This document shows positions 22,257 to 46,575 of a stretch of DNA of 64,000 nucleotides, in pieces (the first letter of the stretch is position 1; each line of letters opens with the position of its first letter). Under the pieces are notes generated by a model. The model was not told the DNA's origin and ran no database searches. It saw only the letters and a program-made list of their open reading frames with translations. Origin of the DNA: a virus. The stretch spans positions 19,797 through 83,796 of the IMG/VR virus record IMGVR_UViG_3300017971_000027. One strand, written 5' to 3'. Both the position numbers and the translations under genes were made by a program.

Positions 22257-23080
22257 TGCAAGGTTGGGACAGTAAGTACAGCCAAGCAGAACGGCAGTCT
22301 GGAGATTGAGGCTCCGATAAATGCGAACGGCAGGACTGCCAAGCTCATTGACAGTTGAATAAATACGAAACATGCGACAAGATTCAGATGCCATACCACT
22401 GAGTGGATTCGAGCTGAGATAGGCAATGTTTCGTTGCGCCGGTGCTGGTGTAGCCCCGTGGAGAACCATTTGGGAGATAAGCCGACATGAACGTGTCGCA
22501 AAGGCACCAGCACCGGCAGGTCGGCGCACACATAGTAAGTCGCCAGAGTAAAGCGAAAGGAGCGGGTTGATCGCCGTGTACTGGGACTGGGTGCTGGCGC
22601 AGGCGCGATGCGAAAGTCCGCGAGTAGGTCGCATATGTGTGTGTCGACCATATAAAGTTTTCGAGTGGCCGCACGAGCTGGCAGTTTCACCCCAATCTGG
22701 AAGGTCTGCGAAACAGGCCATATAGGGGAGTATCGGGAATTGATCAGTCCGACTGAGACGCTGACGAAACTAATCGGGAATTAACTCGTAGATGGCGTAT
22801 GGCGCGAGGGGTTGAGTCCTCGGGCTGTCAGTACTCGTCGAGCCACTTTTAAGCACTGGATGTCGACGTTGGTTCGAATCCAACCGTAGCGGCCGCTGGC
22901 ATAACATTAAGCCCTGTCCTACTGAAAAGGTAGTAAGGCTGTCAGCATATGAGATCACTCGGCGTAGCTCAGAGGTCAGAGCGGTTCAGTGCTTATAGAA
23001 TTTGGCTGGACGTTACCGTCTGTTGCCGAGACCCCGCTGGTAACGGCGGGAGCGGTGAAATTCCGTGGTAACGTCCGAAC
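22257..23080 (+). ncRNA. Candidate large structured ncRNA or ncRNA cluster (~800 nt)
   Basis: Follows promoter TTGACT-17-TATAGT (22223-22251); no credible + strand ORF; long helices 22438-22450/22505-22517 and 22519-22534/22634-22649; T-arm GTTGG-TTCGAAT-CCAAC near 22868-22884. Confidence 0.65.
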
Positions 23081-43307: not shown

Positions 43308-43627
43308 GCGCTCATAAGCCTATTGGCAAGTCTTTGCAGCAATCCAGCTCGCTTAAACATTGGACAACCGTTTGGGTTCGTGTTCACCTCGTCACAGAAT
43401 TCATTATGGTCGACCCAGTAACCATGTTCTGGATTCCAAATCGATTTCACGACGACCTCTTTACACTGTGGGCCGCAATAGTTGCTATAAAGAACGTGGT
43501 CGCATTCTATACAAGCGGACATATTAGGCATCCTCTAAGAAACGCAGGAAACGGCAGAACGATAGGTTTGAATTATACGTCCCACCGCTTCCTCGCGCTC
43601 CGTGGGGGCAACTTCGACCGAGTCGGC

Positions 43628-45115
43628 CTATAGTTCGACCGCTTCGATCTTCCTGACCATCTCAGCACGTTTACCTTCGGTCATGTTAGACATGAACTCG
43701 AAGATCTTTTCCGAGAAGCCAGCGATGCAGTAAGCTTTCCGTTCAGGGAACATCAGCTGACCATAACCCTGCAAGTCGAAACTATAGATTTCAGGGTCCG
43801 CATCGTATTTCTTGCAGTACTTGGCAAACGAGCTACGCGGGTTGCCACGCTCGTTGCCTATCCAGCCCTGCATGTCAGACAGGATAATCACCCTGTCGTA
43901 CTTCTTGTTCGCAACTTCGAAAATTGCGTGGAAGTTTGTGCCACCAGCTTTGAATTGCATATTTTCAGCCAAGGTCAACACGTTTGCACTCGGGTCCAGA
44001 TTACGGTATTGCGCGTAACTCTGGAACGTCATGAAATCAGCGTTGTTCGACTTGAATAGCACGGCTGCGAACATCGCACCAATCTCTGCCGGTGTAGGTG
44101 CTGGCTTGCCGTTAGGCTGCGTTCCACCACCCCACTGCATTGAACCGGACACGTCCAGCACGACAAGTGTGTCACCGTCGAATACCGGCACGTTCTCAAG
44201 TGCAATTTCAGCAGCGTTTCGGATAGCACCTTGGATCAATCTACGGTTGCCGATATTGACGATCTCGTGAGTGTTGTCCAGCGCAGTCTTGAACCGGAAA
44301 GGCAGAACAAGAGACTTTTTGATCTTCTCACGATCCATCAACTGCTCACATGCCATGCCGACACATTCTGGTGCCTGCTCGGCGATATTGCGCAGGTTCC
44401 GAAGCAACGCGAAATACCCAAGCTTACCTTCCTCAAGCAGCTCTTTCCATGACTGTTTCTTCAGCTCGTCGACCTGAGCCTTGGTCTTGCCTTCCTTACC
44501 AGCTTCAGTAAGTTTGGCTTCCCATGTTTCTGTTGACTTGAGATTGCCAGTCATCAGGTCACGGAACAGCTTTTCTTCCTTGCTGTCGCGAGGCTTTGGC
44601 CGAACGATGTTGAACAAGTCGACCATCGACAGCGCACGGTTCTCGCCACGGTATTTGCTCAACTTATATCTGTTGAACTTGTGGACCGCTTTGGCCAGAC
44701 CTTTCTTCAGACAGTTCGGGATCGGACGCTTACCGTAAGTAGCTTGGTAGTACGACATGATCTCAAGCATGTCGTCTGCACGACGAACGATCTTTTCAAT
44801 CGCACCGGCAGTCCAGTTTGCACCCTTCACGTTCTTAGCCAGTTCACCGGCCACAACGTGCGAAACCGAACGGAGACCGAACTCGTTACGGGCATAGATT
44901 GCAGCCTTCGCAGCGAACTGCTTGTCAGGCATAGTTGCAACCAGACCACGCAACCGAGCAATGCGGTCGTCGGCATTCTCGTAGAACATGTCTTTCAACA
45001 TGGACGTCAGAATCAGGCTCGCCAGTTCAAGCTTAGGCGACTCGGAATAACCAGAGCCACCGGCTAGGTTTGTCGTAGCTGTTTTATTTGTTACCTTTGT
45101 ATTGAATCGTGCCAT
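43628..45115 (-). CDS. rsr: Ro60/Rsr TROVE-domain protein with vWA domain
   Basis: TNLAGG, AIYARNEFGLRS, YKLSKY, TWE, GYFALLRNLRNI, LPFRF, MIDAS DVSGSM, GGTNF, ILSDMQ, GFSEKIF; GGAGGT RBS before ATG at 45115. Confidence 0.93.
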   Translation of the reverse strand: MARFNTKVTNKTATTNLAGGSGYSESPKLELASLILTSMLKDMFYENADDRIARLRGLVATMPDKQFAAKAAIYARNEFGLRSVSHVVAGELAKNVKGANWTAGAIEKIVRRADDMLEIMSYYQATYGKRPIPNCLKKGLAKAVHKFNRYKLSKYRGENRALSMVDLFNIVRPKPRDSKEEKLFRDLMTGNLKSTETWEAKLTEAGKEGKTKAQVDELKKQSWKELLEEGKLGYFALLRNLRNIAEQAPECVGMACEQLMDREKIKKSLVLPFRFKTALDNTHEIVNIGNRRLIQGAIRNAAEIALENVPVFDGDTLVVLDVSGSMQWGGGTQPNGKPAPTPAEIGAMFAAVLFKSNNADFMTFQSYAQYRNLDPSANVLTLAENMQFKAGGTNFHAIFEVANKKYDRVIILSDMQGWIGNERGNPRSSFAKYCKKYDADPEIYSFDLQGYGQLMFPERKAYCIAGFSEKIFEFMSNMTEGKRAEMVRKIEAVEL

Positions 45116-45140
45116 TACGCACCTCCTTGCCCATAAGGGC

Positions 45141-45219
45141 TTGAGAGAAAATCGAGTTCGGTTGACCAAGGGGTCAGCTAGTTTGGAGCTGATGAAGTAT
45201 CCGAACTCTCACTACCCAA
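45141..45219 (-). ncRNA. Y-RNA-like unit 5 (nearest Ro60)
   Basis: TTGGG-TAGTGA-GAGTTCGG-ATACTTC-(insert)-CCGAACTC-GATTTTCT-CTCAA. Confidence 0.75.
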
Positions 45220-45265
45220 AGACTGATTTCACATGTGCGAGGCTCAGTCATATAAGCCAAACAAG

Positions 45266-45400
45266 TGCGGAGAAAACAAAGAGAGTGTCTAATAGACTGA
45301 CCCGCGAAGGCCAGACGATTCGCATTTGTACGCAAATCTTGGATTCGAACCAAGTAACCCCGAAGGGTATTTCCGAAGTATCTCTCTTATCACTACCGCA
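45266..45400 (-). ncRNA. Y-RNA-like unit 4, with T-arm
   Basis: TGCGG-TAGTGA-TAAGAGAG-ATACTTC...CTTGG-TTCGAAT-CCAAG...CTCTCTTT-GTTTTCT-CCGCA. Confidence 0.8.
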
Positions 45401-45418
45401 AAAACTAAATTGTAAAAT

Positions 45419-45549
45419 AGGGAGAAAGTTTCGTTGGGTCTCTTACTACTTGTGTGTTTTCCAGTTTCACCACGACCACACTAGGCGGTCGACAGGATTC
45501 GAACCTGCAATCTCAAGTTCCTCTGAAGTATCCCAACGATCACTGCCCT
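45419..45549 (-). ncRNA. Y-RNA-like unit 3, YrlA-like circularly permuted tRNA
   Basis: AGGG-CAGTGA-TCGTTGGG-ATACTTC..ACTTG-AGATT-GCAGG TTCGAAT CCTGT-CGACCGC CTAGT GTGGTCG-TG-GTG AAACTGGAAAA CAC-A-CAAGT..CCCAACGA-AACTTTCT-CCCT. Confidence 0.85.
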
Positions 45550-45570
45550 GAAAATCGCACCACGAAAATA

Positions 45571-45694
45571 GAGGAGAAAATCGCAAAGAGTGTTTTTGTC
45601 GGGTATTTTTTACGAGTAACCCGTCTCGTTGCATCATGACGACTGGTTGCCCAGTCTTTCTCTGTCATAGAAGTAACTCTTTGCTCACTGCCTC
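45571..45694 (-). ncRNA. Y-RNA-like unit 2
   Basis: GAGG-CAGTGA-GCAAAGAG-TTACTTC-(two hairpins)-CTCTTTGC-GATTTTCT-CCTC. Confidence 0.75.
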
Positions 45695-45703
45695 AAAACA
45701 GGG

Positions 45704-45769
45704 TGGAGAGAAAAGTACCAAGGGTGTTTGCTTTTTCCGAAAGAAGTAACCCTTTAGCTCACTACTCCA
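45704..45769 (-). ncRNA. Y-RNA-like unit 1 (minimal)
   Basis: TGGAG-TAGTGA-GCTAAAGGG-TTACTTC-(short loop)-CCCTTGGT-ACTTTTCT-CTCCA. Confidence 0.75.
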
Positions 45770-45810
45770 AATTGCTTCAACAACATCCTTCCGTGAATTC
45801 CACTATAACC

Positions 45811-45840
45811 ATTATACCATAAACCAACCGCATTTGTCAA
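45811..45840 (-). promoter_or_regulatory. sigma70 promoter upstream of the Y-like array and Ro60
   Basis: TTGACA-18-TATAAT within the phage consensus AAACCTCTTGACA...TGGTATAAT. Confidence 0.85.
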
Positions 45841-46375: not shown

Positions 46376-46451
46376 TGGGGTGATAGACGAGACTCGAACT
46401 CGCACATACAAGGTCCACAACCTTGCGGTCTACCGTTGGCCTACTATCACC
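46376..46451 (-). tRNA. tRNA-His(GTG)
   Basis: CAAGG TT GTG GA CCTTG; G-1 and C73. Confidence 0.9.
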
Positions 46452-46499
46452 ATGCATTCTAATTATACCACAAACAACAACCTCGTGTCAAGAGGTTTT

Positions 46500-46575
46500 T
46501 GGTGCGGGAGAAGAGACTCGAACTCTCAACTCAAGCTTGGAAGGCTCACATGTTGCCAATTAACACCACTCCCGC
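46500..46575 (-). tRNA. tRNA-Gly(TCC)
   Basis: TGAGC CT TCC AA GCTTG; CCA. Confidence 0.9.

What the first reader, a model, noticed from the sequence alone, without database searches (positions are those of the whole stretch)
43628..45840. Phage Ro60 preceded by a five-unit array of Y-like RNAs with a shared scaffold and variable inserts
Seen: between a consensus promoter (45811-45840) and the Ro60/TROVE gene lie five units (minus strand) with the layout outer stem-YAGTGA-8/9-nt inner stem-WTACTTC-variable insert-inner stem'-(N)TTTCT-outer stem'. The inner stems differ in sequence but keep their pairing: GAGTTCGG/CCGAACTC, TAAGAGAG/CTCTCTTT, TCGTTGGG/CCCAACGA, GCAAAGAG/CTCTTTGC, GCTAAAGGG/CCCTTGGT. 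Inserts range from under 20 to about 90 nt. Established: Ro60/Rsr binds Y RNAs encoded next to its gene, and the Y RNA can tether effectors such as PNPase. The usual bacterial Ro-binding motif GNCGAAN0-1G is not in these units. Inference: a distinct Y-RNA class in which one Ro60 loads five RNAs with different effector or decoy domains.
Basis: partly seen in the sequence, partly recalled or inferred. Interest (0 to 1): 0.92.

Follow-up and report, generated by a model that had tools for sequence, protein, structure and literature searches.

The report
Five Y-RNA genes before phage Ro60
An 84-kb uncultured marine phage carries five small RNA genes in a row in front of its Ro60 gene, all with one conserved "handle" but different inner parts; they are a divergent, multi-copy form of the known Ro60 partner (Y) RNAs, and the same handle sits beside Ro60 genes in many other phages and bacteria.

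Summary
Five units lie on the minus strand at 45769-45141, between a perfect sigma-70 promoter and a full-length Ro60 (TROVE + vWA) gene. No other copy exists in the 83.8-kb genome.

The units are real structured RNAs. The same handle precedes Ro60 genes about 41-52% identical in roughly 150 phage, metagenome and bacterial loci. Both stems covary strongly there, and every covariance-model hit is on the Ro60 strand. In whole bacterial genomes, 4 of 5 hits lie less than 1 kb upstream of Ro60.

The "distinct class" reading is only partly right. The layout is that of published YrlA/YrlB:
- a 5' motif (YAGUGA here, YRGCGA in relatives), which I read as a variant of GNCGAA;
- a stem;
- the published YUAY (here W-UAC-UUC);
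- a permuted tRNA-like domain in unit 3, plus a T arm in unit 4.

Rfam YrlA matches the relatives below threshold (33-50 bits; cut-off 69).

What is new is the extended handle, a covariation-supported bulged helix with a pyrimidine mismatch, and arrays of 2-6 units with swappable cargo. Ro60 binding, RNA processing and cargo function are inferred, not shown. This scan has already noted TACTTC-handle arrays beside Ro60 in at least 21 other genomes. Verdict: a new variant of a known kind.

The parts
45811..45840 (-). Sigma-70-type promoter TTGACA-18-(TG)TATAAT; the predicted start lies about 35 nt before unit 1
   Evidence: 12 of 12 matches, extended -10; sequence. A promoter of the same form precedes the tRNA block at 46491-46462.
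45704..45769 (-). Unit W1: minimal Y RNA with handle UGGAG/UAGUGA/9-nt inner stem/UUACUUC, an 18-nt apical part with UUC..GAA and ..AACA, then ACUUUUCU/CUCCA
   Evidence: R1 covariance model 58.3 bits, E=1e-13; fold; aligned with 36 short units of relatives
45571..45695 (-). Unit W2: handle with CAGUGA and UUACUUC, and a 79-nt cargo of two or three hairpins with no tRNA features
   Evidence: R1 47.7 bits, E=1e-10; fold z=-2.8
45419..45549 (-). Unit W3: handle (CAGUGA, AUACUUC) carrying a circularly permuted tRNA-like domain. It has a 5-bp ACUUG/CAAGU stem, a T arm with GGUUCGAAUCC, an acceptor-like hairpin and a degenerate D arm (YrlA topology).
   Evidence: Full-length but weak Rfam YrlA match, 17.1 bits, E=1.3; aligns with 30 tRNA-like units of relatives
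45266..45400 (-). Unit W4: handle (UAGUGA, AUACUUC) with a CCC-UUCG-GGG hairpin, a T-arm-like hairpin CUUGG-UUCGAAU-CCAAG and two further hairpins; no D arm
   Evidence: Fold z=-3.3; alignment; pattern-based unit finder
45141..45219 (-). Unit W5: handle (UAGUGA, AUACUUC) with a 32-nt cargo holding one 6-bp hairpin; it ends 25 nt before the Ro60 start codon
   Evidence: R1 38.8 bits, E=3e-8; fold
43628..45128 (-). Shine-Dalgarno AAGGAGG (45128-45122) and the Ro60 gene (ATG 45115 to stop 43628; 495 aa; TROVE + Ro60-type vWA). There is no terminator between unit 5 and the gene.
   Evidence: The closest solved structure is Thermus phage phiLo Ro60 (9KOP/9L5Y), E=1.8e-26 over residues 11-482.

Best explanation
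The region is a phage Ro60/Y-RNA cassette: one promoter, five Y-RNA genes, then the Ro60 gene.

Each RNA has a constant handle and a variable cargo. The handle has these parts:
- a 5-7-bp terminal stem;
- a bulged pyrimidine;
- a short helix made of YAGUGA opposite UUUUCU (R-Y pair, G-C pair, pyrimidine-pyrimidine mismatch, G.U, A-U);
- a 3-nt bulge on the 3' strand;
- an 8-bp stem;
- the box W-UAC-UUC.

Shown here by computation:
- the handle is conserved, with covariation, in many relatives;
- it travels with Ro60 on the same strand;
- it has the element order of YrlA/YrlB.

Inferred:
- The promoter makes one precursor. With no terminator in this phage, that precursor also carries the Ro60 mRNA.
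- Host RNases (RNase E, P or Z plus 3' exonucleases) cut the A/U-rich spacers back to the terminal stems.
- Phage Ro60 binds the bulged helix of each handle, as Ro60 does on animal, Deinococcus, Salmonella and phiLo Y RNAs.
- The cargo of each RNA (a permuted tRNA mimic in W3, a T arm in W4, small hairpins in W1, W2 and W5) then brings a different partner to the Ro60 ring. Candidates are host PNPase or other exoribonucleases, or tRNA-recognising enzymes.
- The outcome would be re-aimed RNA decay or surveillance during infection. This phage also brings 27 tRNA genes.
For: Five units, with chance excluded. Handle structure: in 37 short units, 91.2% of cells are paired against 64.3% in shuffles, the covariation score is 0.74 against 0.23, and 15 of 19 pairs change on both sides. 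An independent set of 72 distinct sequences not used for the model gives 91.6% against 61.9% and 0.77 against 0.21. There the R2-Y8 pair is AU in 55 and GC in 17, with no one-sided change. The mismatch position is U.U in 39, C.U in 18, C.A in 8 and U-A in 5 of 73, and never C-G. RNAalifold on 32 tRNA-like units including W3 and W4 predicts 25 pairs, 23 of them with compensatory changes. Link to Ro60: the pattern finder places 169 units upstream of Ro60, 4 inside and 2 downstream, and only 2 on the opposite strand in 542 kb. All 82 R1 hits in 80 bacterial/MAG loci are on the Ro60 strand. In five whole genomes (37 Mb), 4 of 5 hits lie within 1 kb upstream of Ro60. R1 hits only these units in the 64-kb window. 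YrlA kinship: Rfam YrlA scores 33-50 bits with E down to 1.9e-8 in relatives. The published YrlA features GNCGAA... and YUAY come in the same order. The protein is a full-length Ro60 closest to phiLo Ro60, which binds two upstream Y-like RNAs and host PNPase in vitro (PMC12135203).
Against: There is no expression or processing data: no RNA run holds this sequence. Ro60 binding was not tested. Rfam's YrlA gathering score is not reached, and only W3 gives even a weak match. The literal GNCGAAN0-1G motif is absent. The metazoan Y_RNA model gives no hit at E<=10. The downstream neighbours are DNA-metabolism genes, not the RtcB/RtcA RNA-repair partners seen in enterobacteria. Cargo partners are guesses.
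Confidence: 0.85

Rival explanations
1. The five handles act mainly in cis, as a structured 5' leader of the Ro60 mRNA. Ro60 would bind its own leader and autoregulate its translation or stability, and stable trans-acting RNAs would not be released.
For: In this phage no terminator separates unit 5 from the Ro60 start, which is 25 nt away with the SD in between. About 21 of 35 distinct relatives likewise lack a detectable terminator.
Against: About 14 of 35 relatives do have a hairpin plus T-run between the array and Ro60, so there the RNAs form their own transcription unit. A few units lie downstream of Ro60 (L021, L114, L171) or far from any Ro60 (G005:C24). Known Y RNAs next to Ro60 are stable trans-acting RNAs (PMC4201824).
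Confidence: 0.08
2. The units are decayed or rearranged tRNA genes at the end of the phage's large tRNA block. They would be leftovers with no function of their own.
For: 27 tRNA genes lie just upstream on the same strand. W3 and W4 hold perfect T loops. In relatives a true tRNA sits between units (L001), and GenBank annotates two units of phage csAssE-Sib as tRNAs.
Against: The shared part is not tRNA-like. It is conserved with compensatory changes across Ro60 genes only about 41-52% identical, and in whole genomes it sits next to Ro60. W1, W2 and W5 have no tRNA features.
Confidence: 0.02
3. The handle is bound by a factor other than Ro60, such as a host or another phage protein, and its position next to Ro60 reflects only a shared RNA-metabolism operon.
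For: No binding data exist. The invariant box UACUUC has no assigned partner. One orphan unit lies beside heat-shock genes without Ro60.
Against: The only gene constantly next to the handle, across phages of very different type and bacterial chromosomes, is Ro60. The YRGYGA helix stands where the Ro-contacted GGUCCGA/GNCGAA motif stands in known Y RNAs.
Confidence: 0.05

Closest known systems
YrlA / YrlB, bacterial and phage Y RNAs bound by Rsr (Ro60) (Rfam RF02553; Chen et al. 2014, PMC4201824; Wang et al. 2018, bioRxiv 10.1101/312249)
   Same: Encoded within 1 kb of Ro60 on the same strand. The element order matches: 5' purine-rich motif ending in YGA, stem, YUAY, then a permuted T arm / acceptor-like hairpin / D arm in at least one RNA of the locus. 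The other RNAs keep only the motif and stem, like YrlB. Rfam YrlA gives significant sub-threshold matches in relatives.
   Different: The motif is YAGUGA/YRGCGA rather than GNCGAAN0-1G. YUAY is extended to a near-invariant W-UAC-UUC box. An extra terminal stem is present. The motif strand is demonstrably paired, with a pyrimidine mismatch. Loci hold 2-6 units (five here) instead of one or two. Cargo is far more varied. Rfam's gathering score is not reached (17 bits here, 33-50 bits in relatives, cut-off 69).
Thermus phage phiLo Ro60 with Yrl1 and Yrl2 (PMC12135203; PDB 9KOP, 9L5Y)
   Same: A phage-encoded Ro60 with Y-like RNAs directly upstream. It is the closest solved structure to this Ro60 (E=1.8e-26). 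Binding to the RNAs and to host PNPase was shown in vitro there.
   Different: phiLo has two RNAs, defined by a CGAA motif in a large internal bulge. Here there are five, with no CGAA in the handle. I did not compare the phiLo RNA sequences.
Animal Y RNAs with Ro60 (Xenopus Ro60-Y RNA structure, Stein et al. 2005, as cited in PMC4201824 and PMC12135203)
   Same: The terminal stem is formed by the 5' and 3' ends. [quoted passage not shown]
   Different: No detectable sequence or model similarity (no Rfam Y_RNA hit). Here a mismatch takes the place of the bulged C, by my reading. The cargo is tRNA-like. Animal Y RNA genes are separate Pol III genes, not an operon with Ro60.

Membership tests
YrlA (Rfam RF02553) | Score at or above Rfam's gathering threshold (69 bits) | tested here: not met
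   No hit at gathering in the window. W3 scores 17.1 bits, E=1.3. Relatives score 33-50 bits with E down to 1.9e-8.
YrlA/YrlB as defined by Chen et al. 2014 | Encoded within 4 kb of a Ro60 ortholog on the same strand | tested here: met
   All five units lie 25-650 nt upstream of Ro60 on the same strand. The same holds in relatives and in whole genomes.
YrlA/YrlB as defined by Chen et al. 2014 | GNCGAAN0-1G motif near the 5' end | tested here: not met
   Absent from the array. YAGUGA occupies that position. Relatives have YRGCGA, GGCGAA or GGCGUAG there, so I read it as a variant. That positional equivalence is my inference.
YrlA/YrlB as defined by Chen et al. 2014 | Conserved YUAY after the 5' stem strand | tested here: met
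   UUAC in W1 and W2, AUAC in W3-W5. Among 138 distinct units: UUAC 112, AUAC 20, CUAC 6.
YrlA (tRNA-like subclass) | Permuted tRNA-like domain in the order T arm, acceptor-like stem-loop, D arm | tested here: met
   Met for W3, though its D arm is degenerate. Partly met for W4, which has the T arm only. Not met for W1, W2 and W5, which are therefore YrlB-like.
Y RNA (functional class) | Stable small RNA bound by Ro60 in vivo | not testable with these tools
   No RNA run holds the sequence, and there are no binding data.
Ro60 / Rsr protein | TROVE (HEAT-repeat ring) plus vWA domain, full length | tested here: met
   Pfam TROVE E=2.7e-17 and vWA_Ro60 E=1.2e-4, 22.4 bits, below its 27.7-bit cut-off. 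Matches phiLo Ro60 over residues 11-482.

The most novel reading that the evidence does not exclude
The handle is a general display platform. Ro60 clamps a covariation-proven bulged helix, the bacterial and phage counterpart of the animal Y-RNA Ro site. Phages then multiply and swap the cargo: permuted tRNAs, whole unpermuted tRNAs as in phage csAssE-Sib, bare T arms, and 200-330-nt domains in a 635-kb phage. The result would be a set of Ro60 particles that each capture a different host factor. One example would be decoying tRNA-cutting defence nucleases or tRNA enzymes while the phage's own 27 tRNAs work. The invariant UACUUC box would be a second, still unknown, binding site common to all particles.
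Probability: 0.25. Interest if true: 0.7.

Novelty: new variant of a known kind. Interest (0 to 1): 0.5.

Why it matters
Ro60 with Y RNAs is one of the few RNA-protein particles shared by animals, bacteria and phages. How the RNA directs the protein is known for only one case, PNPase in Deinococcus and Salmonella.

This locus and its roughly 150 relatives add three things:
- The 5' Ro motif of bacterial-type Y RNAs is base-paired in a bulged helix, as shown by covariation. Chen et al. 2014 left this point open.
- They define an extended, near-invariant handle that current Rfam models miss at threshold. Many phage and Bacteroidota Y RNAs therefore go unannotated, and some are annotated as tRNAs.
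- Arrays of 2-6 RNAs with different cargo on one handle are the normal state in this Ro60 clade.

Cultured phages with the same arrays make the cargo question directly testable. These include the Xanthomonas/Xylella phages of the Usme group and Brevundimonas phage Gurke.

Tried and rejected
- DNA search of GenBank phages with the whole region found nothing. Only protein-level relatives exist.
- Sequencing runs: only two DNA metagenome holders, which are possible sources of this DNA, and no RNA holder listed. No expression evidence could be obtained.
- With filters off, R1 loses the long-cargo units because of the model's window limit. W3 and W4 therefore rest on the pattern finder, the alignment with relatives and RNAalifold, not on R1.
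- The supplementary YrlA alignments of Chen et al. 2014 are not held, and the 2020 Annual Review is not held. I could not check whether UACUUC is already visible in their phage sequences.
- A sixth Y RNA downstream of Ro60 was considered. Window 43525-43632 has a long hairpin (z=-3.8) and a literal GGUCGAAG. It is absent from 36 relatives and overlaps the next gene's ribosome-binding site, so I left it as unexplained.
- I read about the resemblance of such handles to Dictyostelium Class I RNAs, raised in earlier notes of this scan. I could not test it for this handle, and there is no Rfam hit. It is not used.
- I looked for RNA-repair neighbours (RtcB/RtcA type) and found none. The downstream genes look like a PD-(D/E)XK nuclease (weak, E=0.0046, below the Pfam cut-off) and an AAA_24 ATPase.
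Full report
**What is there.** The window is part of a complete 83,796-bp virus record with direct terminal repeats. On the minus strand, a perfect extended sigma-70 promoter (TTGACA-18-TG-TATAAT, 45840-45811) is followed by five units:
- W1, 45769-45704
- W2, 45695-45571
- W3, 45549-45419
- W4, 45400-45266
- W5, 45219-45141

After them come AAGGAGG and the ATG (45115) of a 495-aa protein ending at 43628. Pfam calls it TROVE (E=2.7e-17) with a Ro60-type vWA domain, the latter at 22.4 bits, below its 27.7-bit cut-off. Its closest solved structure is the Ro60 of Thermus phage phiLo, E=1.8e-26 over residues 11-482.

The core pattern AGTGA-N7-10-TACTTC occurs five times. About 0.08 matches are expected by chance, and there is no other copy in the genome. 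Two stems need minor qualification: W1 has a bulged A and G.U pairs, and W4 has 7 bp plus a U.U. GNCGAAN0-1G is truly absent.

**Are they real RNAs?** Single folds recover the outer and inner stems but are only modestly better than shuffles. The case therefore rests on comparison with relatives.
- Ro60 relatives at 41-52% identity were fetched from IMG/VR, metagenomes, GenBank phages and bacterial genomes and MAGs.
- Upstream of nearly all of them lie units of the same layout.
- A pattern finder gives 138 distinct units. 169 instances are upstream of Ro60, 4 inside and 2 downstream, and only 2 lie on the opposite strand in 542 kb.
- On 37 short units (alignment A2), the proposed 19-pair structure has 91.2% of cells paired against 64.3% in shuffles. 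The covariation score is 0.74 against 0.23, and 0.13-0.21 when partners are slid.
- Model R1, built from A2, finds W1, W2 and W5 in the window (E=1e-13 to 3e-8) and nothing else in 64 kb.
- On 80 bacterial/MAG loci not used to build the model, R1 gives 82 hits at E<=1e-3, all on the Ro60 strand. Their alignment (72 distinct sequences) shows 91.6% pairing and covariation 0.77 against 0.21.
- In five whole bacterial genomes (37 Mb), 4 of the 5 hits lie less than 1 kb upstream of Ro60. The fifth is an orphan unit behind three tRNA genes, near HSP20 and GroEL.
- W3 and W4 have long cargo and escape R1. They align with 30 tRNA-like units of relatives, for which RNAalifold predicts 25 pairs, 23 with compensatory changes.

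**Anatomy of the handle.** From 5' to 3':
- a terminal stem of 5-7 bp;
- a bulged pyrimidine (U 108, C 21, A 9 of 138);
- R2-Y8 (A-U in 55, G-C in 17, with no one-sided change in the independent set);
- G3-C7;
- a non-Watson-Crick position Y4:Y6 (U.U 39, C.U 18, C.A 8, U-A 5 of 73; never C-G);
- G5.U (A-U in some);
- an invariant A6-U;
- a 3-nt bulge on the 3' strand;
- an 8-bp stem that covaries at 7-8 positions;
- the box W-UAC-UUC, whose positions 2-7 are invariant or nearly so.

In short units the UUC can pair with a conserved GAA, giving UUC-N5-12-GAAA..ACA. In tRNA-like units it starts a hairpin that corresponds to the 'V' stem-loop of YrlA. This last point is my reading and is not supported by covariation, because the box does not vary.

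**What it is.** Chen et al. 2014 define YrlA by four features:
- location next to Ro60 on the same strand;
- a 5' GNCGAAN0-1G motif, likened to the GGUCCGA that Xenopus Ro60 contacts;
- a conserved YUAY;
- T, acceptor-like and D stem-loops in permuted order.

They note that at least one RNA per species has the tRNA-like domain, and that YrlB shares only the motif. The present units have the same order of parts. W3 has the full permuted domain (weak full-length Rfam YrlA match). W4 has a T arm. W1, W2 and W5 are YrlB-like.

Relatives carry YRGCGA at the position of YAGUGA. TAGCGA is the commonest form (43 of 138), TGGCGA occurs 15 times, Brevundimonas phage Gurke has UGGCGUAG, and Xylella phage Usme has UGGUGA/UGGUGUA. 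Rfam YrlA hits the tRNA-like units of relatives at 33-50 bits, with E down to 1.9e-8, below the 69-bit cut-off.

I therefore file the five RNAs as divergent YrlA/YrlB-type Y RNAs, not as a separate class. Equating YAGUGA with GNCGA(A) is an inference from position and from intermediate forms.

**What is new relative to the papers I could read.**
- The motif strand is paired, as proved by the A-U/G-C switch at R2-Y8, and it contains a conserved mismatch and an opposite 3-nt bulge. [quoted passage not shown]
- YUAY is part of a longer, near-invariant box.
- Arrays are the rule. Among 49 distinct loci with enough upstream sequence, the pattern finder counts 1 unit in 3, 2 in 18, 3 in 21, 4 in 4, 5 in 1 and 6 in 1. 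These are lower bounds. The window's five is therefore at the upper end but not unique.
- Cargo is very diverse: 53 of 138 units have a T loop. Other cargo types are listed under things noticed below.

I found no paper describing such arrays. Published phage cases have one or two RNAs.

Earlier notes of this scan report TACTTC-handle arrays beside true Ro60 genes in at least 21 other genomes, with up to ten units, and reach the same classification. Other notes report different handles beside Ro60-like DUF2828 proteins. I did not re-test those loci.

**How it probably works.**
- Shown: the promoter match; the absence of a terminator between W5 and Ro60 in this phage, whereas about 14 of 35 relatives have one; A/U-rich spacers of 8-46 nt; and the conserved handle.
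- Inferred: one precursor is cut by host RNases and trimmed to the terminal stems. Ro60 binds each handle. The cargo recruits different partners.
- By analogy, the partners could be PNPase, as shown for Deinococcus, Salmonella and phiLo, or tRNA-recognising enzymes, since YrlA is modified by TruB and DusA and cut by RNase P.
- The locus ends a block of 27 tRNA genes. Downstream genes are DNA-metabolism genes. A role in RNA turnover or tRNA-centred conflict is reasonable but untested.

**Rivals.**
- A purely cis-acting autoregulatory leader (0.08).
- Binding by another protein (0.05).
- tRNA debris (0.02).

**Limits.** No RNA data exist for this phage. Nothing here shows binding. Part of the unit census uses a pattern filter that presupposes the motif, although the R1-based independent set does not. 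Many "bacterial" loci are MAG contigs and could be phage DNA. Two cultured Neolewinella genomes and several chromosome-sized contigs do carry the Ro60 clade.

**Verdict.** This is a new variant of a known kind, of moderate interest.

Noticed in passing
L089 (phage csAssE-Sib, OR575929.1) 1941-2356: The tRNA-Tyr and tRNA-Lys annotated in GenBank, and also called by ARAGORN, lie inside two handle units (2083-2209, 2229-2356) just upstream of that phage's Ro60. Here the cargo is a whole, unpermuted tRNA-like body without CCA. These 'tRNAs' may be Y-RNA cargo, or tRNAs released from a Y scaffold.
   Followed up: partly
L004 2576-2856 (LR745206.1, 635-kb uncultured phage); also L014, L037, L039: These handle units carry a conserved 205-232-nt cargo shared among the four loci, with no Rfam match at E<=1. 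It is a large unknown structured domain mounted on a Y-RNA handle.
   Followed up: no
window 43525-43632 (minus): Directly after the Ro60 stop lies a long hairpin of about 24 bp (fold z=-3.8), preceded by a literal GGUCGAAG and closed by UAGGC/GCCUA. It overlaps the ribosome-binding site of the next ORF. It is not present behind Ro60 in 36 relatives, most of which have a plain terminator there.
   Followed up: partly
window 22780-23060 (plus strand): A second YrlA-type permuted tRNA mimic (T arm GGTTCGAATCC before D arm GTAGCTCAGAGGTCAGAGC) lies 22 kb away on the other strand, inside a long non-coding stretch. It has no YAGYGA or UACUUC handle and is not hit by R1. Another finding of this scan already covers it.
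   Followed up: partly
L090 1760-2400 (Xylella phage Usme) and L092 1780-2380 (Brevundimonas phage Gurke): These cultured phages have unannotated arrays of 4-5 handle units upstream of Ro60. The handles are variants (UGGUGA/UGGUGUA...UUUGUUCC and UGGCGUAG...) and the boxes include UUACUUC, CUACUUC, AUACUUC and UUCUUC. They are good experimental entry points.
   Followed up: partly
L173 2890-2970 (G005:C24:71393-71470): An orphan short handle unit (R1 53 bits) directly follows three tRNA genes in a Saprospiraceae MAG. It lies near HSP20 and GroEL genes, far from that genome's Ro60.
   Followed up: partly
L001 2519-2593: A tRNA-Glu(UUC) gene sits between two Y units of the array. This suggests that the array is processed by the tRNA-processing machinery.
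   Followed up: no
window 46462-46491 (minus): A second promoter of identical form (TTGACA-18-TG-TATAAT, 12 of 12) lies inside the tRNA block, next to tRNA genes at 46503-46575 and 46379-46450. The tRNA block and the Y/Ro60 cassette seem to use the same promoter class.
   Followed up: no
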